Below, piece after piece: positions 1 through 41,514 of a DNA stretch of 64,000 nt (within the stretch, counting starts at the first letter, position 1; every line of letters starts with the position of its first letter). The translations under genes were made by a program, and so were the position numbers. The stretch lies in the sequence record OQ174503.1; one strand, given 5' to 3'. This DNA comes from Escherichia phage REP4. The notes under the pieces are model-generated. The model was not told the origin of the DNA. It made no database searches and saw only the letters and a list, made by a program, of their open reading frames with translations.

Positions 1-111
1 AACCAAAGTTACTTCATGACCATTTTTAATAAACCAATCACGTTGCTCAAGAGAAAATTTAGTTACACCACAACCTTCAAGACCTCGAGCCATAAAAATG
101 CATACTTTCAT
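1..111 (-). CDS. a-gt: alpha-glucosyltransferase, N-terminal 37 codons (gene continues beyond window start)
   Basis: Minus-strand translation from ATG at 111 reads MKVCIFMARGLEGCGVTKFSLEQRDWFIKNGHEVTLV, matching the T4 AGT N-terminus as I recall it. Confidence 0.75.
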   Translation of the reverse strand, partial: MKVCIFMARGLEGCGVTKFSLEQRDWFIKNGHEVTLV

Positions 112-354
112 TTAATATCCTCATTGTTTTGGTTTATTTTACCAAAAATTTATAAAGCAATATAGGAGCCGAAGCTCCTATCCACATAATACACCATACA
201 GAGGCTCATTAGAGCTTCTAAATTTTATGCGCTTATATGTTATAGTTCCTTCTGCTTTAGCTTTATCGTGAGCCTCTTTAAAGCGTCTCATCATTTCTAC
301 TTTAGAGGAACGAATTTTATTATAATCTATTTCAGAAGTCTGGGTGTTCATCTT

Positions 355-1683: not shown

Positions 1684-1953
1684 TTATCTAAGTAAACAGT
1701 ATGCTTGGAACACTTTCTCCATCATCTTTTTAAATTCATGAATATCTATGTAATGACTAGTTAAATCAGCATGATATAAAAAGTCTAAAAACTTTTCATG
1801 TGTGCTAACATATTCACTTTCATTTAATTCAGAAACATGGCTTTCCCAATATCCAACACCAGTCTTATTTGGGAAAAATGAAATTTTCATATATTGGTCA
1901 ACATAGAAAATTCCATAATTTTCAATAGTAATAGAAATATTAATAAATTTCAT
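1684..1953 (-). CDS. hypothetical protein
   Basis: 89-aa ORF; stop overlaps start of next ORF. Confidence 0.5.
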   Translation of the reverse strand: MKFINISITIENYGIFYVDQYMKISFFPNKTGVGYWESHVSELNESEYVSTHEKFLDFLYHADLTSHYIDIHEFKKMMEKVFQAYCLLR

Positions 1954-3506: not shown

Positions 3507-3830
3507 TTAGTCTTCTATGATATCTCTATCATATCCAAGTGAAATGAGAGTTTCTTTGAAGTGTTTAATGTTCTTTTGTCTAGAATCATTAATGAAAATG
3601 ACTGGATAACGAATGTTAAGAGATGTGAATCCAGCGCGTTTAGCAAGAGATACAATCAGTGGACGATCATACTCAATCTTACCATTATTTGTAAGAACTT
3701 TATAGAAAGTAAAAGGAGCATTGAGCTCCTTTAGAAGTTTTGTAACTGATTGACATCCAGGACAACGACCTACTTCATCTGGAATTCCATAGACTTCAAT
3801 CTTATTCTTTAAGTTCGAGTTTTGTTCCAC
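3507..3830 (-). CDS. nrdH: glutaredoxin-like protein (NrdH-like redoxin)
   Basis: CPGC redox motif after a beta-strand (KIEVYG...GRCPGCQ); sits next to nrdG as in T4. Start uncertain: proposed GTG at 3830 preceded by AAGGA; the 150-aa ORF-track version overlaps the upstream gene. Confidence 0.5.
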   Translation of the reverse strand: MEQNSNLKNKIEVYGIPDEVGRCPGCQSVTKLLKELNAPFTFYKVLTNNGKIEYDRPLIVSLAKRAGFTSLNIRYPVIFINDSRQKNIKHFKETLISLGYDRDIIED

Positions 3831-4113
3831 GAGAAATAATTCCTTGATAAGCCCAGTATGGCGGGTTAACAGAATCATCGCCAGAATTTTCTTCAGGAAA
3901 ATAAACCTGGATAACAAATCCAGATGCGTCAAAGGTAAAATACACCGTAGGTAATTCACCTAACAATTCAGCACGGTTATTAATTTCTTCGAGTTCTCGT
4001 TCTCGTCCAGCCCAAAAACTAGGATTTAGACTACATTCATAGAAATAATAGTCATTACCGAACATATCAAAACCCTTCCAACTCTCTACCACATACCGCT
4101 CAAAACTAATCAT
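3802..4113 (-). CDS. hypothetical protein
   Basis: 103-aa ORF between nrdG and the redoxin. Confidence 0.5.
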   Translation of the reverse strand: MISFERYVVESWKGFDMFGNDYYFYECSLNPSFWAGRERELEEINNRAELLGELPTVYFTFDASGFVIQVYFPEENSGDDSVNPPYWAYQGIISRGTKLELKE

Positions 4114-4115
4114 AA

Positions 4116-4355
4116 TTAAGCCTTTTTATCAAGAACAGCATTCAGCTTGTTAGTAATTTTATCCAGACGCTCATTGAACTCACTAGAAGATAAGCCTTTT
4201 TCTGGAGAAATTAAGCTAATCACGAAAAATATAGCAATAAAAGGAATAAGAAAAATAGCACCAACTGCCATAAACAAAAAGAACGTTACAGTTGTAAGAA
4301 AATCAGCTAAACCTTTACGAAATTTATACATATTTACCCTTAATTGATTAACCAA
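4116..4355 (-). CDS. small membrane protein
   Basis: 79 aa with one long hydrophobic segment (FLTTVTFFLFMAVGAIFLIPFIAIFFVISLI). Confidence 0.5.
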   Translation of the reverse strand: MVNQLRVNMYKFRKGLADFLTTVTFFLFMAVGAIFLIPFIAIFFVISLISPEKGLSSSEFNERLDKITNKLNAVLDKKA

Positions 4356-4445
4356 GCATTGATAAGTACTAAACTATACTGCGAATAAAATTCTGGACCA
4401 AAATGAAAAATCATATCATTTATAGTATCAATAATATAATTCAGT

Positions 4446-4916
4446 TTAATCATGTTTCCACACCCCATCGGTATTTGACCAAAGTCGCTGATTATCTGAA
4501 CCTCGCCACAGCTTTTTGGTCGGAAGATTTTTCTCATACTTCCCATCAATAATAACATCAACATATTTAAGCATTTCTAGTTGTTTAATATCTTCAAACT
4601 TATATCCTGTCCACAACCAAATGCTTTTATTTGGATAAAGATTTTTTACCGTTTGAACAATGCAATGAACATCATCTCGGTTATCAGGATAAAGAGGGTC
4701 TCCTCCAGTTATAGTTAATCCTTCTATATAATCATTATTCAAACATTCAATTAATTGTTCAAGTGTTTCACCAGTGAATGGAACGCCATTTCTAGCATTC
4801 CATGTTGATTTATTATAACACCCTTCACATTTATGCAAACACCCCGTAACGAAAAGAACGACCCTGCATCCAGGGCCATTCACAAAATCGCAGGGATAAA
4901 ATCTATCGTAATTCAT
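4446..4916 (-). CDS. nrdG: anaerobic ribonucleotide reductase activating enzyme (radical SAM)
   Basis: 156 aa, CxxxCxxC radical-SAM cluster motif (CLHKCEGC), ATGA overlap with nrdD. Confidence 0.9.
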   Translation of the reverse strand: MNYDRFYPCDFVNGPGCRVVLFVTGCLHKCEGCYNKSTWNARNGVPFTGETLEQLIECLNNDYIEGLTITGGDPLYPDNRDDVHCIVQTVKNLYPNKSIWLWTGYKFEDIKQLEMLKYVDVIIDGKYEKNLPTKKLWRGSDNQRLWSNTDGVWKHD

Positions 4917-6730
4917 TGGTGTTTAACCCTATGCATGATTTCTTTATTTTTGCCAAGATTAAATCCGCGTTCGTTCGGATTTCCCAAATAACCACAAGTT
5001 CTTCTTATTGTGTTCATCTTTTTAGGATCAGTTTCTCCACAAATAGAACAAACAAATCCGTTTTCAGTAGGAGTCATTTCATGGGTACTTCCACACGTAA
5101 AACATTTATCTACTGGCATGTTAACACCAAAATAATCTAAATGTTGTGCAGCATAATCCCATACAGCCTCAAGACCTTTTAGGTTATTTTTCATATCAGG
5201 AAGTTCAACATAAGAAATGTGACCGCCTGTCGCAATGAAATGATATGGGGCTTCGCGAGAAATCTTTTCAAACGGAGTAATATTTTCTTCTACTGAAACG
5301 TGGAAACTGTTGGTGTACCAGCCTTTATCAGTAACATCCTTTACACTTCCATATTTTTCGGTATCAAGTTTACAGAAGCGATAGCACAGGTTTTCAGCAG
5401 GAGTAGAATACAAACTAAAAGCAAAACCAGTTCTTTCAGTCCACTGCTTAAGACGAGCATTCATTTTAGTTAAAATTTCTTGTCCAATATCACGACCGAC
5501 AAGAATATTCAATTCGTGAATACCAATGTATCCTAGGGACACTGAACTTCTACCGTTTTTAAATAACTCAATTATGTCGTCGTCAGGTTTAAGACGAACC
5601 CCGAATGCACCTTCTTGGTAAAGAATAGGAGCAACAGTCGCTTTAACTCCTTTTAAGGAACTAATTCTACACATCAAAGCTTCAAAACATAAATCCATTC
5701 GTTCATTGAACAATTCGGCAAATTTCTGTTCATTGAACTGTGTTCCAGTATAAGAATCTAACGCAATACGAGGAAGATTCAGTGTTACAACACCAAGATT
5801 ATTACGTCCATCAAGAATTTCATTACCAGTCGAATCTTTCCATACACTCAAGAAACTACGACAACCCATTGGAGAAACAGGAATAGATGAACCGGTGATA
5901 GCTTTATTGTTCTTAGCCGAAATGATGTCAGGATACATTCTTTTGCTTGCACACTCTAAAGCAAGCTGCTTAATATCATAGTTCGGATCGTCTTTATAAA
6001 GATTAACACCCTCTTCAACGAACATAACAAGCTTAGGGAAAATAGGAGTTATCCCATCACGACCAAGGCCTTTAATACGATTTTTCAGAATTGCTTTCTG
6101 AATCATTCGTTCAGTCCAGTCAGTTCCCGTACCAAATGTAATTGTTACAAAAGGCGTTTGTCCGTTTGAACTAAAGAGAGTATTTACTTCATATTCATAA
6201 GCTTGGAACGCATCGTATACGTCTTTTTCTGTTTTAGACTGGGCGTAATTCAACGCATCAGCGATTTGCCATTTTTCTGCATCCTCAATATGTTTTGCGT
6301 AGGTGCGTTTAACATAAGGAGAAAGGACTTTATCTACATTCGCAAAAGTCGTTCCGCCATATTGATGGGAAGCAACCTGCGCAGTAATTTGTGCCATAAT
6401 TGCAGTAGCAACGCCAATTGATTTAGGAGTTTCAATCTGTGCATTACCGAGCTTAAATCCGTTCTCAAGCATTCCTTTTAAATCTACTAAACAACAATTA
6501 GTAAATGGAAGAGCAGGAGAATAATCAATATCATGGAAATGGATAATTCCGCTTTCATGCGCTTTCATAATAAAAGACGGGACCATATTTTTGGCAATGT
6601 GTTTAGACACAATACCAGCCATAAGGTCCCGTTGAGTTGGAAAAACACGAGAATCTTTATTAGCATTCTCGTTTAAAAGGTCTTTATTAGTTTTATGAAT
6701 TAATCCTTCAATTTCTTTTTCAATTGTCAT
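4913..6730 (-). CDS. nrdD: anaerobic ribonucleoside-triphosphate reductase, uninterrupted
   Basis: 605 aa; C-terminal glycyl-radical motif RRTCGYLG and Zn-ribbon cysteines; contiguous ORF with no intron. Confidence 0.95.
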   Translation of the reverse strand: MTIEKEIEGLIHKTNKDLLNENANKDSRVFPTQRDLMAGIVSKHIAKNMVPSFIMKAHESGIIHFHDIDYSPALPFTNCCLVDLKGMLENGFKLGNAQIETPKSIGVATAIMAQITAQVASHQYGGTTFANVDKVLSPYVKRTYAKHIEDAEKWQIADALNYAQSKTEKDVYDAFQAYEYEVNTLFSSNGQTPFVTITFGTGTDWTERMIQKAILKNRIKGLGRDGITPIFPKLVMFVEEGVNLYKDDPNYDIKQLALECASKRMYPDIISAKNNKAITGSSIPVSPMGCRSFLSVWKDSTGNEILDGRNNLGVVTLNLPRIALDSYTGTQFNEQKFAELFNERMDLCFEALMCRISSLKGVKATVAPILYQEGAFGVRLKPDDDIIELFKNGRSSVSLGYIGIHELNILVGRDIGQEILTKMNARLKQWTERTGFAFSLYSTPAENLCYRFCKLDTEKYGSVKDVTDKGWYTNSFHVSVEENITPFEKISREAPYHFIATGGHISYVELPDMKNNLKGLEAVWDYAAQHLDYFGVNMPVDKCFTCGSTHEMTPTENGFVCSICGETDPKKMNTIRRTCGYLGNPNERGFNLGKNKEIMHRVKHQ

Positions 6731-7200
6731 TTTAAACTCTTTCTAAGCTGCTTCTTAAATGAAGCTATTAATTGTGTTTTAGTGTCAGATTCATTATATT
6801 CAAATCCTCTTTGAAGCATCTCAGCCATCATTTCCTCTTTTCCTAAACGAGAAAATTCCTTTGATTTATCTCCAACAAAGTTAGGGTGAATATTATTTTG
6901 GGTGTAATCGGATTTTAAATAAGTAAGTAAATTTTCTAACCATTCAAGATAATCAACACCTTGTCCCTTTAAGCCAGAACGATTAAATTTATGCTTCATT
7001 TGACCTTCCGCAGCATTGCAAAGATTACAGAGCAATCCACGCACCTTTCCAGCTTTCGGTCCATTTAATTCATGGTCATGGTCAAGGTGATTAGCTTGAA
7101 CATCAGGATTTAGTTCTCGTTGGCAAATTAAGCATTTACCGTTTTGTGCATCATAAAATTTTTGTTTTTCTTCTTTGTACAATTTGCCAGTCAATAACAT
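6727..7200 (-). CDS. 49: endonuclease VII (Holliday junction resolvase)
   Basis: 157 aa, Zn-binding CxxC...CNLCN and HLDHDH motif; matches T4 gp49 length and sequence. Confidence 0.9.
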   Translation of the reverse strand: MLLTGKLYKEEKQKFYDAQNGKCLICQRELNPDVQANHLDHDHELNGPKAGKVRGLLCNLCNAAEGQMKHKFNRSGLKGQGVDYLEWLENLLTYLKSDYTQNNIHPNFVGDKSKEFSRLGKEEMMAEMLQRGFEYNESDTKTQLIASFKKQLRKSLK

Positions 7201-7249
7201 AATAAAACCCTTACCTTGAATAGATAAGGGTATTTATTATTTTCAAGTA

Positions 7250-7696
7250 TTAAAACGCTCGGTCAGAAAAAGAAATTTGAGTTTCAAGCCATTCAATATA
7301 TTCTGCCGCAGCTTGCATCAAATTTCCTTCATAACCATCGTTATTTTCTTGTGCAGCTAATTTAGCTAATGCATATGAAATACGTTCACCTTGAAAAGCG
7401 GCTTTAGGTTTATGAATAGTTTGATCAACTCGTTCTACAACTTCTTCAATTTCGCCATTTTCTACTGATTCAGTATTCCACAAGCACCAATACGTAATTG
7501 GCTTATCGTAGATGTTAATAATCTTTCCATCAGAAAGTTCAATTTCAATAATTCCAGTATCAGGTTCTATATCATCTTCACATTCTTTTGCAAGTTCACG
7601 AACTTTAAAGACAGTACCTGCACTAAGTTCAGGCCAGTAATTACACAGCCCTGTATCAGCACGATTAATTCTAAACCACTTATCTACTGTAATCAT
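7250..7696 (-). CDS. hypothetical protein at the T4 pin position
   Basis: ORF after gene 49; start refined to MITVDKWF..., which overlaps the stop of a small upstream ORF. Identity with pin not verified. Confidence 0.45.
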   Translation of the reverse strand: MITVDKWFRINRADTGLCNYWPELSAGTVFKVRELAKECEDDIEPDTGIIEIELSDGKIINIYDKPITYWCLWNTESVENGEIEEVVERVDQTIHKPKAAFQGERISYALAKLAAQENNDGYEGNLMQAAAEYIEWLETQISFSDRAF

Positions 7697-8130: not shown

Positions 8131-8346
8131 TTACCCCAGTTTAACCATGCAATCGCCATATTTCCATTTAGAAATAGACTTTTCACCATTAGAATAATAA
8201 ACTTCGAGTTTAGCGCGGCCATTTTTAATTTGAATAACTTTTGCTGTCATCAAAGTTCCATACCCATAATAAACTGCAACCTCATCACCCACATATACCG
8301 CGCTTCCACGGTAGTCATGGATATAATCAGTTCCTTCAAGCATCAT
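8131..8346 (-). CDS. hypothetical protein
   Basis: 71-aa ORF; ATGA-type overlap with nrdC. Confidence 0.5.
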   Translation of the reverse strand: MMLEGTDYIHDYRGSAVYVGDEVAVYYGYGTLMTAKVIQIKNGRAKLEVYYSNGEKSISKWKYGDCMVKLG

Positions 8347-15671: not shown

Positions 15672-16685
15672 TCATTTATAATAACTTCGGTGGTTTTCAA
15701 GATAAACCCTCTCAAGGAAGTCATCCCAGAAACCCATGTCTACTTTTTGCTGCATACCGTTCTTAGAAGCTTCAATGGATGCTGCTTCTACTTGATCGAC
15801 CACATCTTCCAAAAACTCTTGAACAGTTTTAAATGGATGTTTACCCAGCTTCACGTCGAGAATAAATGGAGCGTCTTGAAGTGGATAAACTAAGTCACCA
15901 GTTTTGTAAATTTCCAATAGTTGGAGTCCACCACGGCAAGCATGACTAAGAGCTTTCCAGTCAATGCCCTCATTCGCTTCAGCCTTACGAGCACGTTCGC
16001 CGTATTCAGCATCTAATTTGTTCAGTGACTGCTTAAGCTCAATAAGAGAAAGTGTTGTCTGATATTTACGACCCAACACAGTGTAAAACGTTTGTGGACC
16101 TGTTTTCTCATGATTATGGAATACCCATTCGCAGAACTCGTTCTCTGGAAGACGATGCTTAATATCTTCAACTTTAGTTCGACGTTGCTTAATAGAACCA
16201 TCTTCTTGGTAATCAACCCATTGCTCAGGGATTTGATTAACTACTTTCAATACATCACGTAATGCGGCCAAACGAGAACCCTTAACACCATATTTAGAAG
16301 CTTGCTTGCGAACATATCCTAAATAGGATTTCATGTTAGTTGTATAAAACCGTGAACGATTGTCTTGAATAAACTTCCATACATCAGGCAAATCAGATTT
16401 AACTACCAGTTCAGGTGGAGTGTGGAGCATATCCAATGCTACAGTTTCACCATCTGCTGCTAATTTAAAGAAATATTTAAGACTGTATAGTTCATGGTCA
16501 ATATCATCTTTGGTGTTTTTAGATGATGTGTTGTTAGTGTTTTTACTCATATGCTCTTTAACATTTCCGATAAGAATATCACGAGCAGGAGGAACAAAGA
16601 TTTCTTTAAAATCTACATCAGATTCTGGAGTAGAAGTTCCATAAAGATGACTACCGAAATAGCTTTTCATTACTGTTTTCATCAT
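15672..16685 (-). CDS. predicted Pol-beta-superfamily nucleotidyltransferase
   Basis: 337 aa; N-terminal GS...DVD motif (YFGSHLYGTSTPESDVDF) characteristic of the minimal nucleotidyltransferase fold; 4-bp overlap with the ATPase gene. Confidence 0.55.
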   Translation of the reverse strand: MMKTVMKSYFGSHLYGTSTPESDVDFKEIFVPPARDILIGNVKEHMSKNTNNTSSKNTKDDIDHELYSLKYFFKLAADGETVALDMLHTPPELVVKSDLPDVWKFIQDNRSRFYTTNMKSYLGYVRKQASKYGVKGSRLAALRDVLKVVNQIPEQWVDYQEDGSIKQRRTKVEDIKHRLPENEFCEWVFHNHEKTGPQTFYTVLGRKYQTTLSLIELKQSLNKLDAEYGERARKAEANEGIDWKALSHACRGGLQLLEIYKTGDLVYPLQDAPFILDVKLGKHPFKTVQEFLEDVVDQVEAASIEASKNGMQQKVDMGFWDDFLERVYLENHRSYYK

Positions 16686-17143
16686 TCAGCCTTATATTCA
16701 ATAACAGGACATACTTTAGCTTTACGCGCTTTTAAAAATTCGACGATAATAGATTTCTTGGGTTGAATAGGAGGTAAACCTTTATATGCCCTATCAATAT
16801 TTTCTACATGTAAAGCATAATCCTTTTTCCATTTATAATCTTTATATTTTTCATGCAGTTGTGCAGGAATAACAAATGAACCGATAATAAGTAAAACAAG
16901 CAAAATAGCAAGTATAAATGCTGATGGAATAAGAGTCCATAAACTACCAAAAATAAGCCATTTCTGCATGATTTCTGCGCAGATGATAGTTAGACCTGCG
17001 AGTATAGTACATCCGAAAAAAGAAACGAAAAATGTAGGAATAACAATAGACCAAAAATACGCGCACAGTGTCTTAGGTCGTTTCCATTCATCATTAAACA
17101 TTTTGAATAATTTATAGTGCCAAGAGCTTTCATTAATAATCAT
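16682..17143 (-). CDS. multi-pass membrane protein
   Basis: 153 aa with 3-4 predicted transmembrane helices and a basic C-terminus. Confidence 0.5.
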   Translation of the reverse strand: MIINESSWHYKLFKMFNDEWKRPKTLCAYFWSIVIPTFFVSFFGCTILAGLTIICAEIMQKWLIFGSLWTLIPSAFILAILLVLLIIGSFVIPAQLHEKYKDYKWKKDYALHVENIDRAYKGLPPIQPKKSIIVEFLKARKAKVCPVIEYKAE

Positions 17144-17145
17144 AA

Positions 17146-17667
17146 CTATCCTTTCATTGAAGGTGTAACAGTTGTTAAATACTTAATCATAGCTTCAGCT
17201 TCTGATTTTGATAATGAAATTTCTCCATTGTTTTGACGAATAGAAATAAAATCCGGATGACGATCACCACCAGCCTTTAAAACACACATATAAGTATCAG
17301 TTTCATCTTCAATATTTGAAATGATTGAAGCAGTTCCACATGAATGTGGTTTTTGATAAATCAATGCAGCTTTTCTTCCACCGTTTGACTGTTCATAAAC
17401 TTTTAACACATCAAACAAATCACTTCTTTTATCAATAGCTAAGATGTTGTTTTCATCTTCAATGTTAAATCCTTCGGATACTTCATAAAGTGTCACCCAT
17501 AAATCACCTATATCGATAGTAGCATTTCCTTTTCCACGACTTTCAAGAATATGACAAATTTTCTTGATTTCGTCATAACTCATTTTAATAATATCATCTC
17601 CTTGAATAAGGAAGATGTCATTTTTAAATTCAACACGAATTAAACCGCTTTCACTTGAAATAAACAT
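17146..17667 (-). CDS. hypothetical protein, paralog A
   Basis: 173 aa; C-terminal motif SKSEAEAMIKYLTTVTPSM shared with the next ORF. Confidence 0.5.
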   Translation of the reverse strand: MFISSESGLIRVEFKNDIFLIQGDDIIKMSYDEIKKICHILESRGKGNATIDIGDLWVTLYEVSEGFNIEDENNILAIDKRSDLFDVLKVYEQSNGGRKAALIYQKPHSCGTASIISNIEDETDTYMCVLKAGGDRHPDFISIRQNNGEISLSKSEAEAMIKYLTTVTPSMKG

Positions 17668-25538: not shown

Positions 25539-26012
25539 TTATTTGAACGATTTAACGTACTGAATAGAACCTTTACTATTCACGAAAGCGATTTTACCAT
25601 TTTTATTATACATGGTAGCAGTACGCTGATAGCCATAAGTTTGCTTACCAGATTGATAACCAACTAATGCAAAATTATCTTCACCCATTTTATTCTGTTT
25701 AGCGCGAATGCGTTCATGACCATGTGCCATAAGAACCTTAGCATCACCAGTTGCAATGGATCGACGAGTTTTTTCATCTTCAACTGTATTAACAAAGTCG
25801 TCAAATGAATCAAATTTAGCATGAGATTTATTATACAGTTTTCCATCTACTGCATAATTATATCCCTGTACATCCATCTCAACTTCTGTACCATCATCCA
25901 ATACAGCAGTGATTTTCTGTCCTTTTTTAAATTTCAAAAGATCAGTAAAAGATTCAGCAATAATTTGAGAATTAATAGTTGCTTCAGTAATAAATTCTTG
26001 ATATGTTTTCAT
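25539..26012 (-). CDS. internal-protein-like head protein with N-terminal capsid-targeting sequence
   Basis: 157 aa beginning MKTYQEFITEA, the conserved internal-protein leader shared with ipI. Confidence 0.6.
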   Translation of the reverse strand: MKTYQEFITEATINSQIIAESFTDLLKFKKGQKITAVLDDGTEVEMDVQGYNYAVDGKLYNKSHAKFDSFDDFVNTVEDEKTRRSIATGDAKVLMAHGHERIRAKQNKMGEDNFALVGYQSGKQTYGYQRTATMYNKNGKIAFVNSKGSIQYVKSFK

Positions 26013-26028
26013 GTGTATCCTTTAATTT

Positions 26029-26346
26029 TTATTCTTTAGGGAAGTTTTTAGAATATGCATCATAAAGCTTATTTCCAATACGGCGGAAAACTCTAGCCGC
26101 AAAACGATTTTCTGGGTTTTTAATCATGATTTGCATCATATAAGTACCCGCGTCAGAAAGAGCTTCTTCATAGTACCCGTTAATTTCTTTAAGAGTCCTA
26201 CGTTTACCACCAGGACCATCAACAGTGATTTTCCATTTACCTGTAGAAGTGCGACTTGGCGGCTCAACTTGTTCAATCCAGATATAACCGCCTTCTACAC
26301 GTTGTCCTTGGGCAGATTCTGCAATAAATTCTTTAAACGTTTTCAT
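26029..26346 (-). CDS. internal-protein-like head protein with capsid-targeting sequence
   Basis: 105 aa beginning MKTFKEFIAES; early promoter upstream. Confidence 0.6.
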   Translation of the reverse strand: MKTFKEFIAESAQGQRVEGGYIWIEQVEPPSRTSTGKWKITVDGPGGKRRTLKEINGYYEEALSDAGTYMMQIMIKNPENRFAARVFRRIGNKLYDAYSKNFPKE

Positions 26347-30579: not shown

Positions 30580-30604
30580 AAAAAGCCCTATCATTTAGAT
30601 AGGG
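30580..30604 (-). terminator. hairpin terminator (CCCUAUC-UAAAU-GAUAGGG + U-run)
   Basis: 7-bp stem, 5-nt loop, T5 tract on the minus strand, just after the stop of the 30613-31176 gene. Confidence 0.55.
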
Positions 30605-30612
30605 ATTTAAAA

Positions 30613-31176
30613 TTATTTACCTAGTTTAGTTATTATAGCTTCTGCGGCAGCTTTTAGTTTAGATGCGGTGTTAATACGATTTTTAATTTCAGTATACGCA
30701 TCGCCAAGAACGTCAAGGCTATCAGAATAAACGCTTACACTATTGCGTTCGCTATTTGAAATAGAACCTTTAGTTTTACGATCAAAATCAATGTACACGT
30801 CTTGAAGATCATGGGCTGCCTTCTTTGCATCATCCAATGCATCAAGAGCTTTATTCAAAGCATTAACGTATTTTTTAGTGTCGAACATATTCTTAGAAAT
30901 TTTAACAGGCGCACGTTCAGGAGTAGCTAAGGCAGATTTAGGAACCTGAGCGCCAGATGCCAGTTTCTTAGAAATTTTGAAAAATGCTTTATTGAATTTA
31001 TTTTCTTGACTCATCGTAAAAGAACTATTATCGATGTTATACATTTCAATAGCTTTAGCTTTCCACTTAAGAAAATCGCCACGGTCTTTTGGGTCCAATT
31101 GGAAGAATACTTTAGTAAGTTCTGCTTCAGATGGTAATTTTGCTGCTTCGGTTAAAAATTCGGCATAAGTTTTCAT
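30613..31176 (-). CDS. internal-protein-like protein with capsid-targeting sequence
   Basis: 187 aa beginning MKTYAEFLTEAA; no T4 counterpart at this position that I recall. Confidence 0.55.
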   Translation of the reverse strand: MKTYAEFLTEAAKLPSEAELTKVFFQLDPKDRGDFLKWKAKAIEMYNIDNSSFTMSQENKFNKAFFKISKKLASGAQVPKSALATPERAPVKISKNMFDTKKYVNALNKALDALDDAKKAAHDLQDVYIDFDRKTKGSISNSERNSVSVYSDSLDVLGDAYTEIKNRINTASKLKAAAEAIITKLGK

Positions 31177-31263
31177 TTAAAATCCTTGAAATAATCTATC
31201 GGTTGGTTATTAATTATTTATTACTTTGTTATTATCCGTAACAGCGTTATCCGAGTGATTCAA

Positions 31264-31296
31264 ACTAAAAAGCCCCAACCTTTCGGTCGGGGCTAA
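31264..31296 (-). terminator. hairpin terminator (GCCCCGACC-GAAA-GGUUGGGGC + U5), copy 1 of a 33-bp direct repeat
   Basis: 9-bp stem with GAAA tetraloop and T5 tract on the minus strand, after the stop of the 31302-31775 gene. Confidence 0.65.
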
Positions 31297-31301
31297 GAAT
31301 G

Positions 31302-31775
31302 TTATTTGATTTGTTTAGCAGACCAAATGCGGTCTTTGATGATTTTTTGGAGATCTTCAACATACTCTAGGTCATGAGCATGTGGATTATCTTTGAAACT
31401 ATAGGCACGGGCTAATTTTTGGCCTTCGGTTTTAATTACTAAAAGCTCTTTAAGGATAGCTTCATATTTAGCGATAATTCCTTTAACAATATTTTTTTCT
31501 TGTGCAGCTTTAGGATCTGCTTTAGGAGCAGGTTTACCCGAAGCCTTTGCAAAAGCAGCACCAGTAGCAACTAAACTTTTCCAGGCCATACTAACCGCAT
31601 TTCCTGTAAATCCTTCTGCTTTCATGTCGCGAGCAAACTGGAATCGTGATTCGTCAGAAGCATCTTTATAGGAATATTTACCCGCTGCAATGGCTGCTTT
31701 TGCGACAGCTTGAATTTCGGTGCTAGATGCTTCATTTAACACCGCTTCATTTAAAAATTGAGCATATGATTTCAT
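31302..31775 (-). CDS. internal-protein-like protein with capsid-targeting sequence
   Basis: 157 aa beginning MKSYAQFLNEA; Ala/Lys-rich; late promoter upstream. Confidence 0.55.
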   Translation of the reverse strand: MKSYAQFLNEAVLNEASSTEIQAVAKAAIAAGKYSYKDASDESRFQFARDMKAEGFTGNAVSMAWKSLVATGAAFAKASGKPAPKADPKAAQEKNIVKGIIAKYEAILKELLVIKTEGQKLARAYSFKDNPHAHDLEYVEDLQKIIKDRIWSAKQIK

Positions 31776-31815
31776 CTTATTTCCTGTTTTAATTCGTGGA
31801 TTTAATATACTACTA

Positions 31816-31823
31816 TATTTATA
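31816..31823 (-). promoter_or_regulatory. late promoter (TATAAATA)
   Basis: Exact TATAAATA on the minus strand upstream of the 31302-31775 gene. Confidence 0.5.
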
Positions 31824-32164: not shown

Positions 32165-32515
32165 TTAATATTCTTTTAAAGCATCAATCTGTTCACGACG
32201 TTTACGCCATAAATCAATTGCTTCATACGCAGATTCAGCATTTCGAATTGGACGGCATTTATATAAAGACTTGTGATTTTGATATTGCGTAGATAACGGA
32301 ATTTTATCTAAAAGGTCTTTACGTTCAAAGTATTCGTAACCATCTAAGCCAAATGAACGATTTTTGAGAAATTGCCAATGACCAAATTCGTTTTGAATAT
32401 AAATATAATCCGCGTGTTGATAAAGTAAATTAATTTCACGAAATGAGATATGTTTTTCATATTCATTGAAGTAAAATGTTAAATCATGAACTACTAAATA
32501 AACATTACCTTTCAT
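32165..32515 (-). CDS. hypothetical protein
   Basis: 116-aa ORF between tRNA-Arg and the small-RNA region. Confidence 0.5.
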   Translation of the reverse strand: MKGNVYLVVHDLTFYFNEYEKHISFREINLLYQHADYIYIQNEFGHWQFLKNRSFGLDGYEYFERKDLLDKIPLSTQYQNHKSLYKCRPIRNAESAYEAIDLWRKRREQIDALKEY

Positions 32516-32533
32516 ATTTTCCTCACTTATAAT

Positions 32534-32609
32534 TGGTCGAGGCAGTAGGGATCGAACCTACGACCTAGGACTTAGAAGGTCCTTGCTCTTCCTTCTGAGC
32601 TATGCCCCG
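32534..32609 (-). tRNA. tRNA-Arg (anticodon UCU)
   Basis: Hand-folded cloverleaf: acceptor CGGGGCA/UGCCUCG, anticodon loop CUUCUAA, T-loop UUCGAUC, CCA encoded. Confidence 0.85.
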
Positions 32610-32613
32610 TAAT

Positions 32614-32689
32614 TGGGGTGACCGATGGGAGTCGAACCCATGACTACGAGAATCACAATCTCGAGTTCTACCAACTGAACTACGGCCAC
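32614..32689 (-). tRNA. tRNA-His (anticodon GUG)
   Basis: Acceptor GUGGCCG/CGGUCAC, discriminator C73, anticodon loop UUGUGAU, CCA encoded; base at -1 is U, not G. Confidence 0.75.
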
Positions 32690-32802
32690 ATTAATACCTA
32701 CTCCAACAATCAAGATGTCTTCACACGAAATTAAGAGAAGAGTGATCAGTTCAACCCTATAATCGCGTCAAGTAGATATTAATGTGACAGTTGTCACAAA
32801 TT

Positions 32803-32877
32803 TGGCGGACGTGATAGGATTCGAACCTATAACCAATCGCTTAACAGGCGATCGCTCTGCCATTGAGCTACACATCC
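32803..32877 (-). tRNA. tRNA-Asn (anticodon GUU)
   Basis: Acceptor GGAUGUG/CACGUCC, anticodon loop CUGUUAA, T-loop UUCGAAU, CCA encoded. Confidence 0.75.
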
Positions 32878-32881
32878 AAAT

Positions 32882-32968
32882 TGGTGGGGAGTGATGGAGT
32901 CGAACCACCCGAGTCGCAATGACAATGGATTTACAGTCCACACCGCTACCTCTACGGGATAACTCCCC
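32882..32968 (-). tRNA. tRNA-Tyr (anticodon GUA), long variable arm
   Basis: Acceptor GGGGAGU/ACUCCCC, anticodon loop CUGUAAA, 87 nt with long variable arm. Confidence 0.7.
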
Positions 32969-32981
32969 TTAATTCTTAATT

Positions 32982-33056
32982 TGGTGGCCCTGGGTGGAAT
33001 TGAACCACCATCTGGCGATTATGAGTCGCTTGCTTGAACCTTCCAGCTACAGGGCC
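32982..33056 (-). tRNA. tRNA with anticodon CAU (Ile2-type by T4 synteny, or Met)
   Basis: Acceptor GGCCCUG/CAGGGCC, anticodon loop CUCAUAA, T-loop UUCAAUU; sits where T4 has tRNA-Ile. Confidence 0.7.
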
Positions 33057-33057
33057 T

Positions 33058-33133
33058 TGGTGCTGATTGACGGAATCGAACCGCCGACCTTCTCATTACA
33101 AGTGAGTTGCTCTACCTACTGAGCTAAATCAGC
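33058..33133 (-). tRNA. tRNA-Thr (anticodon UGU)
   Basis: Acceptor GCUGAUU/AAUCAGC, anticodon loop CUUGUAA. Confidence 0.85.
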
Positions 33134-33138
33134 AAAAC

Positions 33139-33228
33139 TGGCGGAGGCGATAGGATTTGAACCTATGAGTCGCCGGAGCGACTGCCGGTTTTCAAGACCG
33201 GTGCATTAAACCACTCTGCCACGCCTCC
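33139..33228 (-). tRNA. tRNA-Ser (anticodon UGA), long variable arm
   Basis: Acceptor GGAGGCG/CGCCUCC, anticodon loop CUUGAAA, 90 nt. Confidence 0.85.
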
Positions 33229-33230
33229 AG

Positions 33231-33304
33231 TCTCCATACAAGGATTTGAACCTTGGACCTCCTGATCCCAAATCAGGCGCTCTACCAAACTGAGCTACAC
33301 GGAG
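33231..33304 (-). tRNA. tRNA-Pro (anticodon UGG), CCA not encoded
   Basis: Acceptor CUCCGUG/UAUGGAG, anticodon loop UUUGGGA; only 2 nt from tRNA-Ser (dimeric precursor). Confidence 0.8.
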
Positions 33305-33314
33305 TAAATTAAAT

Positions 33315-33388
<74 letters not shown>

Positions 33389-33393
33389 AAATT

Positions 33394-33480
33394 TGGTGCG
33401 AGAAGTGGGACTCGAACCCACAAGGAAATCATTCCGCAGCATTTTAAGTGCTGTGCCTTTACCAATTTGACCATTCTCGC
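33394..33480 (-). tRNA. tRNA-Leu (anticodon UAA), long variable arm
   Basis: Acceptor GCGAGAA/UUCUCGC, anticodon loop CUUAAAA, 87 nt. Confidence 0.85.
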
Positions 33481-33481
33481 G

Positions 33482-33554
33482 CTGGGAATAAAGGACTCGA
33501 ACCTTTGCATCCTGGAATCAAAATCCAGTGCCTTACCAACTTGGCTAATTCCCA
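33482..33554 (-). tRNA. tRNA-Gln (anticodon UUG), CCA not encoded
   Basis: Acceptor UGGGAAU/AUUCCCA, anticodon loop UUUUGAU; 1 nt from tRNA-Leu (dimeric precursor). Confidence 0.8.
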
Positions 33555-33651: not shown

Positions 33652-33939
33652 TTACCATTTATGATAATACATATTTACGATGCATTCAAGACCCAAAGGA
33701 TTCTTGAAAATATCATATTCAAGAGGACCTTTTTCCGTTTCAATAAAGAAATCAAAATTTACTGTATTAAATTTACGGTCTTCCTTCACTAATTTAACTT
33801 GAGAAGATGAACGATCAATGTAAACCTTTTCAACTTCAAAACATGTTAAAATGCCATAATCATCAATCAAGGCTTTAGCTGCTTCTTGATCATATTTATA
33901 TCCATTTTCAATGGATGATACTTTCGCATAAAGAATCAT
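33652..33939 (-). CDS. hypothetical protein
   Basis: 95-aa ORF. Confidence 0.5.
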   Translation of the reverse strand: MILYAKVSSIENGYKYDQEAAKALIDDYGILTCFEVEKVYIDRSSSQVKLVKEDRKFNTVNFDFFIETEKGPLEYDIFKNPLGLECIVNMYYHKW

Positions 33940-37065: not shown

Positions 37066-37890
37066 TTAGATATTTGACCAGACTTTGTTTGCAGAGAAAC
37101 GTTTTCCTTTTGAAACGAACTGCTGAAGTGGCATTAATACAACGTTCGCCCAGTCTTTCGGGGCGATTTCAACAAGGCTACCCATGATATTACCAGGTAT
37201 ATATGCCTTAATCATTTGGTCTGCACCTCTAAATCCTTTCACTTGACTCCAATCAATTTTTAATTTCGTTTTATTAGTAATAGTAGGTGTATTTGAATAT
37301 TGCTTTAAAAGCTCTTCTAGAAATTGCTGACGAGCTTTAGGTGGAATATAGTGCAAGTTCAATCCGTACATTAAATTATGTTTACCTAAACCGAGGTAAA
37401 TTATCAAAGGAAATTTATCCCAGTAAGGAAGAGTTTCTTTGTGTTTAGCATCGTAAGCAAAAGCATATATTCGTCCCGGCTGCGGGCGAACAACTTTATG
37501 TCCTTTTACCTGCTTAATAGTTTCAGCAAACCACTTTCTGGTTTTATTATTAATTGCTGCGCCTTCATTACGAATTTTATCACGCAATGTTTGCCTGAAT
37601 GAATTTATCATAAGCAGTTGTCTTTCTTGCTTATTGAGTTTATTCATTGGTTTTGATTCAAGCTTTTGAATCTTTTCAGCCGTTTTAATTCCTGAAGCAT
37701 ATTTTGACATTGCCGAAGTAAACGTAGAGTATTTGATTCCTCTTTCTTCAGCAAATTGCTTTCCTGTCATTCCTTTTGCTTTGGCCTTTTTGTATTCAAG
37801 ACCTATCTGAATCCATTTCTTTTCGTTTAATGATTGCTTAACCTTTGGAACTTGGGGAGTGCTTTCATTAATTATTTGAAAAATAGCCAT
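37066..37890 (-). CDS. 2: gp2 DNA end-protector protein
   Basis: 274 aa, T4 length and order. Confidence 0.8.
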
Positions 37891-38342
37891 TATGCCCCCT
37901 TAAAGCCAAGAGCTCGTAATCCATCTTCTGTTAGAATTCTAAATTTTATTCCACGCTTTTCAGCTAAAGCTTGCGCTGCTTTCCATTTATCAGTATTAAC
38001 GGAATATGTATAAATTTCATTCATAAATCTTTTCTTCGCTGCGGTTGTTAGATGTGCCGGTTTAACTGGTGGTTGTGTTTCTTTTTTAGGTTTTATTTCA
38101 ATAAAAAATTCTTGTCCAGAAGAATCTTTCATCCAAATATCCATGAAGTATCTACGTTTTTTCCCTTCTGCATTACAAAAATAAGGAATTACTGCTGTTT
38201 CACTACCCCATGCAATAATTTCTGGATTTTTATCTAACCATTCAAAAAAGAATTTTTCCCAATTTGATCTATACGTAATTTTTTTAGGGTCACCTCTATA
38301 TTTTGATATATTTTTAGGAACCCATTTTCCAGAATATGCCAT
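37890..38342 (-). CDS. 4: gp4 head completion protein
   Basis: 150 aa, T4 length and order. Confidence 0.8.
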
Positions 38343-38353
38343 TGGATTCTCCT

Positions 38354-38376
38354 TATAAATAGATAATATATTTATA
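38354..38376. promoter_or_regulatory. divergent late promoters (TATAAATA on each strand) between genes 4 and 53
   Basis: Plus-strand TATAAATA at 38354-38361 for gene 53; minus-strand TATAAATA at 38369-38376 for gene 4. Confidence 0.55.
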
Positions 38377-38389
38377 AACAGGAGGGCCC

Positions 38390-38980: not shown

Positions 38981-40691
38981 TAACCTTAATTGGTTTGTTG
39001 GTGTTGTTGAAGATAGAATGGACCCATTAAAATTAGGTCGTGTTCGTGTTCGTGTGGTTGGTCTGCATCCGCCTCAAAGAGCACAAGGCGATGTAATGGG
39101 TATTCCAACTGATAAATTACCATGGATGTCAGTTATTCAACCTATAACTTCTGCAGCAATGTCTGGAATTGGAGGCTCCGTTACTGGTCCGGTAGAAGGA
39201 ACTAGAGTATATGGTCATTTTTTAGACAAATGGAAAACTAACGGAATTGTCCTTGGCACGTATGGTGGGATAGTTCGCGAAAAACCTAATAGACTTGAAG
39301 GATTTTCTGACCCAACTGGACAGTATCCTAGACGTCTAGGAAATGATACTAACGTATTAAACCAAGGCGGAGAAGTAGGATATGATTCGTCTTCTAATAT
39401 TATCCAAGACAGTAATTTAGATACTGCAATAAATCCAGATGATAGACCGCTATCAGAAATTCCAACTGATGATAATCCAAATATGTCAATGGCTGAAATG
39501 CTTCGCCGTGATGAAGGATTAAGACTAAAAGTTTATTGGGATACTGAAGGATATCCGACAATTGGTATTGGTCATCTTATCATGAAGCAGCCAGTTCGTG
39601 ATATGGCCCAAATTAATAAAGTTTTATCAAAACAAGTTGGTCGTGAAATTACCGGAAATCCAGGTTCTATTACAATGGAAGAAGCGGTAACTTTATTTGA
39701 ACGCGATTTGGCTGATATGCAACGTGACATTAAATCACATTCTAAAGTTGGCCCAGTTTGGAAAGCAGTTAATCGTTCTCGTCAAATGGCGTTAGAAAAT
39801 ATGGCATTTCAGATGGGTGTTGGCGGTGTAGCTAAATTTAACACAATGTTAACTGCTATGTTAGCCGGAGATTGGGAAAAAGCATATAAAGCTGGTCGTG
39901 ATTCATTGTGGTATCAACAAACAAAAGGCCGTGCATCCCGTGTTACCATGATTATTCTTACCGGGAATTTGGAATCATACGGTATTGAAGTGAAAACGCC
40001 AGCTAGGTCTTTGTCTGCAATGGCTGCTACTGTAGCAAAGTCTTCTGACCCGGCTGATCCTCCTATTCCGAATGATTCGAGAATTTTATTTAAAGAACCT
40101 GTTTCTTCATATAAAGGTGAATATCCGTATGTTCACACAATGGAAACTGAAAGCGGTCATATTCAGGAATTCGATGATACCCCTGGGCAAGAGCGATACA
40201 GATTAGTTCATCCGACTGGAACGTATGAGGAAGTATCACCATCAGGAAGAAGAACAAGAAAAACTGTTGATAATTTGTATGATATAACAAATGCTGATGG
40301 TAATTTTTTGGTAGCCGGTGATAAAAAGACTAACGTCGGTGGATCAGAAATTTATTACAACATGGATAATCGTCTTCACCAAATAGATGGAAGCAATACA
40401 ATATTTGTGCGTGGCGATGAAACTAAGACAGTTGAAGGTAATGGAACTATCCTAGTTAAAGGTAATGTTACTATTGTAGTTGAAGGTAATGCTGACATTA
40501 CAGTTAAAGGAGATGCTACCACTTTAGTTGAAGGAAATCAAACTAATACAGTAAATGGAAATCTTTCTTGGAAAGTTGCTGGGACAGTTGATTGGGACGT
40601 TGGTGGTGATTGGACAGAAAAAATGGCATCTATGAGTTCTATTTCATCTGGTCAATACACAATTGATGGATCGAGGATTGACATTGGCTAA
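38964..40691 (+). CDS. 5: gp5 baseplate hub / tail-associated lysozyme
   Basis: 575 aa; internal lysozyme domain (MAEMLRRDEGLRLKVYWDTEGYPTIGIGHL) similar to e; C-terminal VEGN repeat beta-helix. Confidence 0.95.
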   Translation: MEMISNNLNWFVGVVEDRMDPLKLGRVRVRVVGLHPPQRAQGDVMGIPTDKLPWMSVIQPITSAAMSGIGGSVTGPVEGTRVYGHFLDKWKTNGIVLGTYGGIVREKPNRLEGFSDPTGQYPRRLGNDTNVLNQGGEVGYDSSSNIIQDSNLDTAINPDDRPLSEIPTDDNPNMSMAEMLRRDEGLRLKVYWDTEGYPTIGIGHLIMKQPVRDMAQINKVLSKQVGREITGNPGSITMEEAVTLFERDLADMQRDIKSHSKVGPVWKAVNRSRQMALENMAFQMGVGGVAKFNTMLTAMLAGDWEKAYKAGRDSLWYQQTKGRASRVTMIILTGNLESYGIEVKTPARSLSAMAATVAKSSDPADPPIPNDSRILFKEPVSSYKGEYPYVHTMETESGHIQEFDDTPGQERYRLVHPTGTYEEVSPSGRRTRKTVDNLYDITNADGNFLVAGDKKTNVGGSEIYYNMDNRLHQIDGSNTIFVRGDETKTVEGNGTILVKGNVTIVVEGNADITVKGDATTLVEGNQTNTVNGNLSWKVAGTVDWDVGGDWTEKMASMSSISSGQYTIDGSRIDIG

Positions 40692-41220
40692 TATACTTCC
40701 AATGAGCGCTGATTTAGGAGAATCCATGGAAGGTTCTTCTATCGACGTCACCTTTACCGCTCAATTAGAAACAGGTGAAACGTTAGTATCTATAAATATA
40801 ACTAGTTACGAAGAAACTCCTGGGGTTTTAGTAGAAGAAAATCATTTATATGGAACGTATGAATCTGTGTTTGGATTTGGAAATGACGCATTGAAATATC
40901 GTTTAGATGATGAATTTAAAACTGCTGCTTCATGGGAAGACCTTCCAACTGATTCTAATACTCAGTTATATTTGTGGAAAGCTCCTCAAAACCTCCAGAA
41001 GACATTCACTTATGAAGTAACATTAATATATGACTACCAAGAACAAAGTGAATCTGGAGGTTCTGGCAGTAATTCTAGGTCATCTTCTGATACTACTGAA
41101 CCAACGAATCCTCCAGCTCCAATAAGAAAAACTCTTGTTAAAAATTACACAAAAACTATAGTTGGAAATTGGAGTCGTTGGGCTAATAAATTGAGAAGCT
41201 ATGTGTATGAGAGGCCATAA
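40663..41220 (+). CDS. 5.1: gp5.1
   Basis: 185-aa ORF directly after gene 5. Confidence 0.7.
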
Positions 41221-41514
41221 ATGTCAGGATTAAGTTATGATAAGTGTGTTACTGCTGGCCATGAAGCATGGCCTCCAACAGTTGTGAATGCCACACAAAG
41301 TAAAGTATTCACCGGAGGAATTGCTGTTCTCGTAGCAGGTGATCCAATTACAGAACATACAGAAATTAAAAAGCCATATGAGACACATGGCGGAGTGACA
41401 CAACCTAGAACTTCTAAGGTATATGTCACTGGAAAGAAAGCTGTTCAAATGGCTGATCCAATATCATGCGGTGATACTGTGGCTCAGGCATCATCTAAAG
41501 TATTCATTAAATAG
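41221..41514 (+). CDS. 5.4: gp5.4 spike-tip protein
   Basis: 97 aa, directly follows 5.1 with no intervening gene. Confidence 0.75.

What the first reader, a model, noticed from the sequence alone, without database searches (positions are those of the whole stretch)
4913..6730. Intron-less nrdD and no homing-endonuclease genes at the T4 positions
nrdD is a single 605-codon ORF, whereas T4 nrdD is interrupted by a group I intron carrying I-TevIII. The positions where T4 has homing endonucleases (near nrdG/nrdD, after the nrdC.x block, inside the tRNA cluster, between 5.1 and 5.4) carry no GIY-YIG or HNH ORF in this window; 5.1 and 5.4 are directly adjacent. This genome looks like the endonuclease-free recipient state.
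Basis: partly seen in the sequence, partly recalled or inferred. Interest (0 to 1): 0.4.

Follow-up and report, generated by a model that had tools for sequence, protein, structure and literature searches.

The report
Ordinary intron-less nrdD, T2-like phage
This T4-like phage segment has an uninterrupted anaerobic ribonucleotide reductase gene and none of T4's selfish endonuclease genes, which is the normal, majority condition among T4 relatives (as in phage T2) and is already well documented.

Summary
nrdD (4913-6730, minus strand) is one 605-codon ORF, 600/605 identical to spliced T4 NrdD. The 1033-nt T4 intron is missing exactly between window bases 6193 and 6192.

One detail is wrong: the T4 nrdD intron carries I-TevII. 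I-TevIII belongs to the nrdB intron.

The window is collinear with T4 about 37.7-103.5 kb. All six T4 homing-endonuclease elements in that interval fall in alignment gaps: mobB, mobC, the nrdD intron with I-TevII, mobD, segB and segC. No GIY-YIG, HNH or group I intron signal was found, and the positive controls on T4 worked.

This is not unusual. T2 has the same arrangement at every one of these positions. About 89% of sequenced relatives have an uninterrupted nrdD junction. Each T4 element occurs in only 25-126 of roughly 700 related records. Two 2010 reviews already call T4 the outlier.

"Recipient state" is plausible for this 64-kb window. The nrdD homing site and tRNA-Asn (the preferred SegB target) match T2. 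Neither was tested, and 9 of T4's 15 endonuclease positions lie outside the window.

Side findings: donor-derived sequence tracts travel with the intron and with mobC.

Verdict: already known, low interest.

The parts
4913..6730 (-). nrdD: uninterrupted class III (anaerobic) ribonucleotide reductase large subunit, 605 codons
   Evidence: Pfam NRDD and Gly_radical; 600/605 identical to spliced T4 NrdD; C-terminal CxxC...CxxC and the RRTCGYLG glycyl-radical motif are present
6192..6193 (-). Position equivalent to the T4 nrdD intron insertion site (splits codon 180, T|AT); nothing is inserted here
   Evidence: the T4 intron 44815-45847 (1033 nt) is absent exactly between these bases
6173..6194 (-). 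T2-type (intron-less) homing-site allele, positions -2 to +20 relative to the insertion site: GAAT|ATGAAGTAAATACTCTCTTT. It has 7 synonymous differences from the patch carried by intron-containing phages.
4446..4916 (-). nrdG: radical-SAM activase. Its ATG overlaps the nrdD stop (ATGA, 4913-4916), which is the empty mobC site holding a single copy of the 21-nt sequence that is duplicated around mobC in T4.
6727..7200 (-). gene 49 endonuclease VII (Holliday-junction resolvase), directly upstream of nrdD with no endonuclease gene between them
   Evidence: 157/157 identical to T4 gp49
102..127 (.). Empty mobB position between a-gt and a-gt.2; T4 has 861 nt with mobB here
   Evidence: collinear with T2
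16682..17667 (-). mobD position after nrdC.11. It is occupied by a 153-aa predicted membrane protein (16682-17143, phrog_944) and a 173-aa y05I-like protein (17146-17667). Neither is an endonuclease, and T2 has the same arrangement.
32534..33554 (-). Cluster of 11 tRNA genes with no segB. tRNA-Asn (32803-32877) is identical to T2's, which is the preferred SegB target in T2L.
   Evidence: PMC2330249
32165..32515 (-). 116-aa ORF (phrog_3355, function unknown) next to tRNA-Arg; not an endonuclease; also present in T2
40663..41514 (+). Genes 5.1 (stop at 41220) and 5.4 (ATG at 41221), directly adjacent. segC and 5.3 of T4 (558 nt) are absent.

Best explanation
The window is an ordinary Tequatrovirus (T4-like) segment with T2-type gene organisation. 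Its nrdD is the native, never-interrupted gene for the anaerobic ribonucleotide reductase large subunit. It is translated directly without splicing and is translationally coupled to the activase gene nrdG through an ATGA overlap.

The six selfish elements that T4 carries in this interval are simply not there: mobB, mobC, the nrdD group I intron with I-TevII, mobD, segB and segC. T4's condition is the derived, invaded one. The window shows the uninvaded majority condition.

Inferred, not shown: in a mixed infection with T4, the window's T2-type targets would be cut by the T4 enzymes. Double-strand-break repair would then convert those targets to the T4 version. This is the known basis of T2 marker exclusion.
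For: Shown here:
- Identity and collinearity with T4, with precise gaps at every endonuclease gene.
- Collinearity with T2 across all of those positions without gaps.
- No endonuclease or intron signal, with working controls.

Majority state:
- 426 of 478 records matching the nrdD junction are uninterrupted.
- The T4-type intron is in 25 records and a second intron type in 44.
- mobC is in 32 records, mobD in 47, segB in 126 and segC in 37. About 713 records hold the nrdG-pin region.

Footprints showing that T4 is the invaded state:
- A 7-substitution synonymous patch (-2 to +20) is found in 5/5 intron-containing phages and 0/10 close intron-less ones. No intron-less record exceeds 94.9% identity to the spliced T4 junction.
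- mobC is flanked by a 21-nt direct repeat that is single-copy in the window.
- The first 300 nt of T4 nrdG differ by 33% from the window and T2, but match Klebsiella phage Wolf_ER13, which carries the same mobC.

Literature:
- Table 5 of PMC2993671 lists T4 15, T2 1, RB26 none, RB69 none.
- SegB cuts T2L tRNA-Asn, and segB is inherited at nearly 100% in T4 x T2L crosses (PMC2330249).
Against: - Only 64 kb of a genome of about 167 kb is visible, so endonuclease genes may exist elsewhere.
- Cleavage of the window's sites by T4 enzymes was not tested.
- The nrdD site differs at 7 of 22 positions from the T4 exon junction, which as I recall was the sequence used as the I-TevII substrate in the classic assays.
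- Several window-specific ORFs have no known function: 16682-17143, 30613-31176, 31302-31775 and 32165-32515.
Confidence: 0.9

Rival explanations
1. Resistant allele rather than naive recipient. On this view the T2-type sequence at -2 to +20 of the nrdD homing site escapes I-TevII cleavage. That would explain why about 89% of relatives stay intron-less even though homing is efficient.
For: There are seven differences within the 22 nt next to the insertion site. Phage intron endonucleases cleave within 25 bp of the insertion site (PMC2988022). As I recall from Bell-Pedersen et al. 1990, I-TevII cuts 13-15 nt downstream. Every intron-less close relative examined has this allele, and no intron-less phage has the T4 patch.
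Against: All seven changes are synonymous third-position changes, as expected for simple divergence of the donor lineage. Sequence between the insertion site and the break is necessarily copied from the donor, so a linked patch is expected without any resistance. I-TevI and I-TevII make sequence-tolerant minor-groove contacts (PMC2988022). The nearly identical intron (99.2-100%) sits in at least four different downstream exon backgrounds. Some of these are window-like at +34 and +37, which suggests repeated entry into T2-type alleles.
Confidence: 0.12
2. Secondary loss. On this view the lineage once carried the intron and the free-standing endonuclease genes and lost them by precise deletion.
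For: Endonuclease genes are known to decay. T4 I-TevIII and mobA are relics. A cyclical gain-and-loss model exists (PMC2988022).
Against: Precise loss of the intron would leave the donor patch, but the window has the T2 patch. nrdG is the native allele rather than the mobC-linked divergent one. No remnant similarity to any of the 15 T4 endonucleases was found. T2 and hundreds of other phages share the same junctions.
Confidence: 0.04
3. A homing endonuclease of an unrecognised family is hidden among the window-specific ORFs of unknown function at the mobD, e.8/rnaC or tRNA positions.
For: ORFs 16682-17143, 30613-31176, 31302-31775 and 32165-32515 occupy variable intergenic slots of the kind endonuclease genes favour, and they have only 'unknown function' PHROG matches. 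New endonuclease families, such as F-CphI with an EndoVII motif, are still being described (PMC6083498, listed).
Against: No nuclease or DNA-binding module (NUMOD, HTH, zinc finger) was detected in these four ORFs. Elsewhere among the window-specific pieces Pfam did report a phage zinc-binding domain and a weak putative DNA-binding domain; I did not locate them. 16682-17143 matches a membrane-protein family. 17146-17667 belongs to the y05I/mobD.1 family. Three of the four are conserved in T2 at the same place.
Confidence: 0.03

Closest known systems
Phage T2 (AP018813) nrdH-nrdG-nrdD-49 region and T2/T2L tRNA region
   Same: - nrdD is a single 605-codon ORF overlapping nrdG.
- There is no mobB, mobC, mobD, segB or segC.
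- The same two ORFs sit at the mobD position, and 5.1 and 5.4 are adjacent.
- The homing site is identical from -16 to +50, and tRNA-Asn is 75/75 identical.
   Different: Nucleotide identity is about 91-98% and the genomes are mosaic. The window has extra tRNA-Thr and tRNA-His genes and a 1.2-kb insertion (30604-31821) that T2 lacks. T2 has a 402-nt ORF inside its tRNA cluster.
Phage T4 nrdD (sunY) with its group IA intron encoding I-TevII
   Same: The exons encode the same protein (600/605 identical). Gene order is nrdG-nrdD-49-pin.
   Different: The window lacks the 1033-nt intron, I-TevII, the adjacent mobC and the 7-nt donor patch. T4's nrdG 5' half is a divergent allele.
Endonuclease-poor T4 relatives listed in PMC2993671 Table 5 (RB26 none, RB69 none, T2 one, RB14 two)
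   Same: No homing-endonuclease genes at the positions where T4 has them. This is described as the common condition.
   Different: The full count for this phage is unknown because only 64 kb is visible.
IME537/JK45-type nrdD intron (second intron variant at the same insertion site)
   Same: It targets exactly the same nrdD position (between codon positions 538 and 539), which shows that this site is a hotspot.
   Different: The window has neither variant. The IME537 intron is 1045 nt, its endonuclease is 56% identical to I-TevII, and it carries its own distinct exon-2 patch.

Membership tests
Class III anaerobic ribonucleotide reductase large subunit (NrdD) | Full-length NRDD catalytic domain | tested here: met
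   Pfam PF13597, 1.2e-171, residues 21-604 against profile positions 1-562 of 562. PDB 1h78 T4 NrdD matched over 1-605, 1397 bits.
Class III anaerobic ribonucleotide reductase large subunit (NrdD) | C-terminal glycyl-radical motif and Cys4 zinc ribbon | tested here: met
   Pfam Gly_radical 1.2e-25. The sequence shows CFTCG...CSICG and RRTCGYLG.
Class III anaerobic ribonucleotide reductase large subunit (NrdD) | Adjacent radical-SAM activase NrdG | tested here: met
   ORF 4446-4916 matches Fer4_12 (2.1e-48) and Radical_SAM, and overlaps the nrdD stop.
Group I self-splicing intron (Rfam RF00028) in nrdD | Catalytic core matching the covariance model, interrupting the ORF | tested here: not met
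   No RF00028 match at gathering score, at E<=5 on the whole window, or at E<=10 on 4300-7400. Controls: T4 scores 105 bits and IME537 72 bits. The ORF is continuous and the same length as spliced T4 nrdD.
GIY-YIG homing endonucleases (Seg, I-TevI, I-TevII) | GIY-YIG catalytic domain, with or without NUMOD or I-TevI DNA-binding modules | tested here: not met
   tblastn with 9 T4 proteins gave E>0.3. The HMM search of the six-frame translation gave E>1, against a T4 control at 1e-24 to 1e-44, and a motif regex found nothing. Pfam scans of the window-specific ORFs found none.
HNH homing endonucleases (Mob, I-TevIII) | HNH / His-Me finger catalytic motif in a free-standing or intron ORF | tested here: not met
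   tblastn gave E>0.3. The Mob HMM gave E>1, against a T4 control at 1e-91 to 1e-105. Pfam found none. The only His-Me-superfamily protein is gp49 EndoVII, identical to T4's resolvase.
Homing-site (recipient) allele for I-TevII | Uninterrupted exon junction at the insertion site | tested here: met
Homing-site (recipient) allele for I-TevII | Sequence match to a substrate shown to be cleaved | tested here: inconclusive
   There are 7 mismatches to the T4 exon junction within -2 to +20, but the site is identical to T2 from -16 to +50. I could not retrieve a paper showing I-TevII cleavage of the T2-type site.
Homing-site (recipient) allele for I-TevII | Actual cleavage and intron acquisition in a cross | not testable with these tools
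   Needs an enzyme assay or a mixed infection.
SegB target (T2L-type tRNA cluster) | tRNA-Asn gene carrying the 27-bp preferred site with the GGTTCRANTCC core | tested here: met
   tRNA-Asn 32803-32877 is 75/75 identical to T2's, and the core GGTTCGAATCC is present. The site is defined in PMC2330249.

The most novel reading that the evidence does not exclude
The T2-type synonymous patch at the nrdD homing site (window 6173-6194) could be a cleavage-resistant allele kept by selection, rather than merely the un-converted sequence. It is carried by every intron-less relative examined. If so, it would explain why about 89% of sequenced Tequatroviruses remain intron-less despite efficient homing, and the window would be an immune state rather than a recipient state.
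Probability: 0.1. Interest if true: 0.35.

Novelty: already known. Interest (0 to 1): 0.08.

Why it matters
It matters little as a discovery. Variable presence of the T4 introns and of the seg and mob genes among T-even phages has been known since the late 1980s and is the textbook explanation for T2 marker exclusion by T4. Reviews already state that T4 is the outlier.

The window is a clean reference for the uninvaded state. Compared with T4, it makes the donor-derived tracts that travel with the intron and with mobC easy to see. The mobC tract hints that the still-unidentified MobC target lies in the first ~300 nt of nrdG.

Tried and rejected
- Rfam in 'gathering' mode gave no hit on the IME537 locus, although 'evalue' mode found a 72-bit group I intron above the 50-bit threshold. 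The fast filters can therefore miss real introns. For that reason I re-scanned the window's nrdD region with lax filters and relied mainly on ORF continuity.
- A weak tblastn/HMM similarity of SegB/SegC to ORF 33652-33939 (trna.2; E 0.37-1.2) was checked with Pfam. It found nothing, so I treat it as chance.
- I tried to read Sandegren & Sjoberg 2004 (JBC) and Sandegren et al. 2005 (PMC1275590) for homing tests into T2-type sites. Neither is held. Searches for the I-TevII cleavage position in open papers were unproductive.
- I did not run Pfam on every T4-homologous ORF. Block lengths match T4 to within tens of bases, which leaves no room for an extra endonuclease gene.
- IMG/VR gave only 21 nrdD loci, so prevalence was estimated from the GenBank phage collection instead.
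- No identical phage record exists. The best match for 14000-36000 is 98.1% (vB_EcoM_G50).

Full report
**What the window is.** The 64-kb window is a Tequatrovirus (T4-like) segment. It aligns collinearly with T4 NC_000866 from about 37.7 to 103.5 kb at 86-98% nucleotide identity, running from the 5' end of a-gt to gene 68. No identical record exists in the GenBank phage collection. The best matches are about 98% (IME340 and HY01 for the nrdD region; vB_EcoM_G50 for 14-36 kb), so it is an ordinary mosaic member of the genus.

**The observation.**
- ORF 4913-6730 on the minus strand is 605 codons.
- It matches Pfam NRDD (1.2e-171) and Gly_radical, and the T4 NrdD crystal-structure sequence over its full length. 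It contains the Cys4 ribbon and the RRTCGYLG glycyl-radical motif.
- I rebuilt spliced T4 nrdD by joining 45848-46385 to 43535-44814. That gives a 605-codon product, 600/605 identical to the window protein, with 95.2% nucleotide identity.
- The T4 intron (44815-45847, 1033 nt) is therefore missing exactly between window bases 6193 and 6192, inside codon 180.
- Rfam finds no group I intron in the window at gathering score, at E<=5, or with lax filters on 4300-7400. The T4 intron scores 105 bits as a control.

The T4 nrdD intron encodes I-TevII (GIY-YIG). I-TevIII is the HNH relic in the nrdB intron (T4 annotation; Table 1 of PMC2988022).

**The other T4 endonuclease positions.** In the T4 interval covered by the window there are six elements, and each falls in an alignment gap.
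- mobB: T4 37885-38679 corresponds to window 102-127, about 24 nt.
- mobC: the window's nrdD stop overlaps the nrdG ATG as ATGA at 4913-4916.
- The nrdD intron with I-TevII, as above.
- mobD: replaced by window 16686-17649.
- segB with tRNA-Arg and tRNA-Ile: replaced by window 32165-33037.
- segC plus 5.3: the 5.1 stop at 41220 abuts the 5.4 ATG at 41221.

**What occupies the non-empty positions.**
- At the mobD position: a 153-aa predicted membrane protein (phrog_944) and a 173-aa y05I-family protein.
- At the segB position: additional tRNA genes and a 116-aa ORF of unknown function.

**Negative tests with controls.**
- tblastn with all 15 T4 homing endonucleases finds nothing below E=0.3. 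gp49 is recovered at 157/157 identity.
- HMMs built from the nine GIY-YIG and five Mob HNH proteins find nothing below E=1 in 1187 six-frame pieces. They recover the T4 genes at 1e-24 to 1e-105.
- Pfam and PHROGs scans of the ten main window-specific ORFs give no endonuclease, NUMOD or LAGLIDADG family.
- A Pfam scan of all 91 six-frame pieces of at least 30 aa in window-specific DNA gives the same result. Only 21 families were listed, so that list is complete.
- Aligned blocks match T4 in length to within tens of bases, so no extra endonuclease gene can hide in the T4-homologous parts.

**How unusual this is.** It is not unusual.
- T2 (AP018813) is collinear with the window without gaps across the mobB, mobC/intron, mobD and segC positions. 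It has the same 605-codon nrdD overlapping nrdG.
- In the phage collection, 426 of 478 records matching a 100-nt spliced junction are uninterrupted.
- The T4-type intron is present in 25 records, mostly T4 itself and its derivatives. A second intron type is in 44 records.
- mobC occurs in 32 records, mobD in 47, segB in 126 and segC plus 5.3 in 37. About 713 records hold the nrdG-pin region.
[quoted passage not shown] They tabulate T4 15, T2 1, RB26 none and RB69 none (PMC2993671 Table 5).

**Is it a recipient?** Three points support this.
- The window's nrdD site is identical to T2's from -16 to +50.
- Its tRNA-Asn is 75/75 identical to T2's.
- That gene holds the preferred 27-bp SegB site in T2L, and segB is inherited at nearly 100% in T4 x T2L crosses (PMC2330249).

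For nrdD the picture is less direct.
- Intron-containing phages (T4, EC128, fPS-2, Manna, G8) all carry GAGT|ATGAAGTGAACACGTTATTCAG.
- The window, T2 and eight IMG/VR relatives carry GAAT|ATGAAGTAAATACTCTCTTTAG.
- These are seven synonymous differences within -2 to +20. No intron-less record exceeds 94.9% identity to the spliced T4 100-mer.
- Phage intron endonucleases cut within 25 bp of the insertion site (PMC2988022). From memory of Bell-Pedersen et al. 1990, I-TevII cuts 13-15 nt downstream.
- Sequence between the insertion site and the break must be copied from the donor. The patch is therefore most simply an obligatory co-conversion tract.
- Downstream of the patch the intron-containing phages differ from one another, and some match the window. 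That suggests repeated entry into T2-type alleles. This step is inference; I could not retrieve a paper that tests I-TevII on the T2-type site.

**Direction of change.** T4 is the invaded state and the window the uninvaded one.
- mobC in T4 is flanked by a 21-nt direct repeat (ATGAATTATGAYAGAATYTAT, encoding MNYDRIY). It begins both mobC and nrdG, and is single-copy in the window.
- The first 300 nt of T4 nrdG differ at 100 positions from the window. The last 170 nt differ at one.
- Klebsiella phage Wolf_ER13, whose mobC matches T4's at 100% over the 601-nt query, shares T4's 5' nrdG sequence.
- The window, T2, Manna and IME537 share the other nrdG allele at 96-99%.
- Together with the absence of any endonuclease remnant, this argues against secondary loss.

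**Verdict.** The phenomenon is textbook T-even biology and represents the majority state, so novelty is nil and interest is low.

Noticed in passing
window 6173-6194 (nrdD positions -2 to +20 around the intron insertion site): A patch of 7 synonymous substitutions is perfectly linked to the T4-type nrdD intron. It is present in 5/5 intron-containing phages and absent from 10/10 close intron-less ones. No intron-less GenBank phage exceeds 94.9% identity to the spliced T4 junction. This looks like an obligatory co-conversion tract and shows no sign of precise intron loss in nature.
   Followed up: yes
window 4446-4916 (nrdG) versus L001 6447-7539 (T4 nrdG and mobC) and L032: T4 mobC is bounded by a 21-nt direct repeat encoding MNYDRIY, which is single-copy in the window. 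The first 300 nt of T4 nrdG are 33% divergent from the window and T2, but are shared with Klebsiella phage Wolf_ER13, which carries a mobC matching T4's at 100% over the 601-nt query. This is a mobC-linked donor tract, and it hints that the still-unknown MobC target lies in the 5' part of nrdG.
   Followed up: partly
L030 2294-3338 (phage IME537; 44 records hold it): A second, distinct group I intron (1045 nt) sits at exactly the same nrdD insertion site. Its endonuclease is 56% identical to I-TevII and it carries its own exon-2 patch. Rfam 'gathering' mode missed it (0 hits) although it scores 72 bits against a 50-bit threshold in 'evalue' mode. This is a filter false negative worth knowing about.
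   Followed up: partly
window 25539-26346: denV (endonuclease V, pyrimidine-dimer repair), ipII and ipIII of T4 are absent. They are replaced by a 157-aa internal virion protein (DUF7412, phrog_3155) and a 105-aa ORF. T2 is collinear here.
   Followed up: partly
window 30604-31821: A 1.2-kb insertion lies between e.8 and the rnaC/rnaD genes and is absent from both T4 and T2. It holds two paralogous ORFs (30613-31176, 187 aa; 31302-31775, 157 aa) of PHROG family 2280, function unknown, with no nuclease signal.
   Followed up: partly
window 32534-33554: There are 11 tRNA genes against 8 in T4. The extra ones are His, Asn and Tyr. A CAT-anticodon tRNA (called Met by ARAGORN) sits at the position of T4 tRNA-Ile. 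The T2 record lists 9 tRNAs and lacks Thr and His.
   Followed up: no
window 1684-1953, 3802-4113 and 8131-8346: Small ORFs differ from T4: an extra 89-aa DUF7200 ORF between genes 55 and 55.1, an extra 103-aa ORF (phrog_2749) next to nrdH, and a 71-aa DUF7205 ORF replacing 49.3. These are ordinary mosaic variation.
   Followed up: no
L028 (fPS-2), L029 (Manna), L022 (G8): nrdD exon 1: In three intron-containing phages, exon 1 of nrdD is only 82-86% identical to the window, against 96-98% in T4 and EC128. In fPS-2 there is an extra endonuclease gene (NUMOD3) between nrdD and gene 49, and Manna has extra ORFs of unknown function there (G8's flank was not examined). This may be another endonuclease-linked donor tract. 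EC128 and fPS-2 also carry a GIY-YIG/NUMOD3 gene at the mobC position.
   Followed up: no
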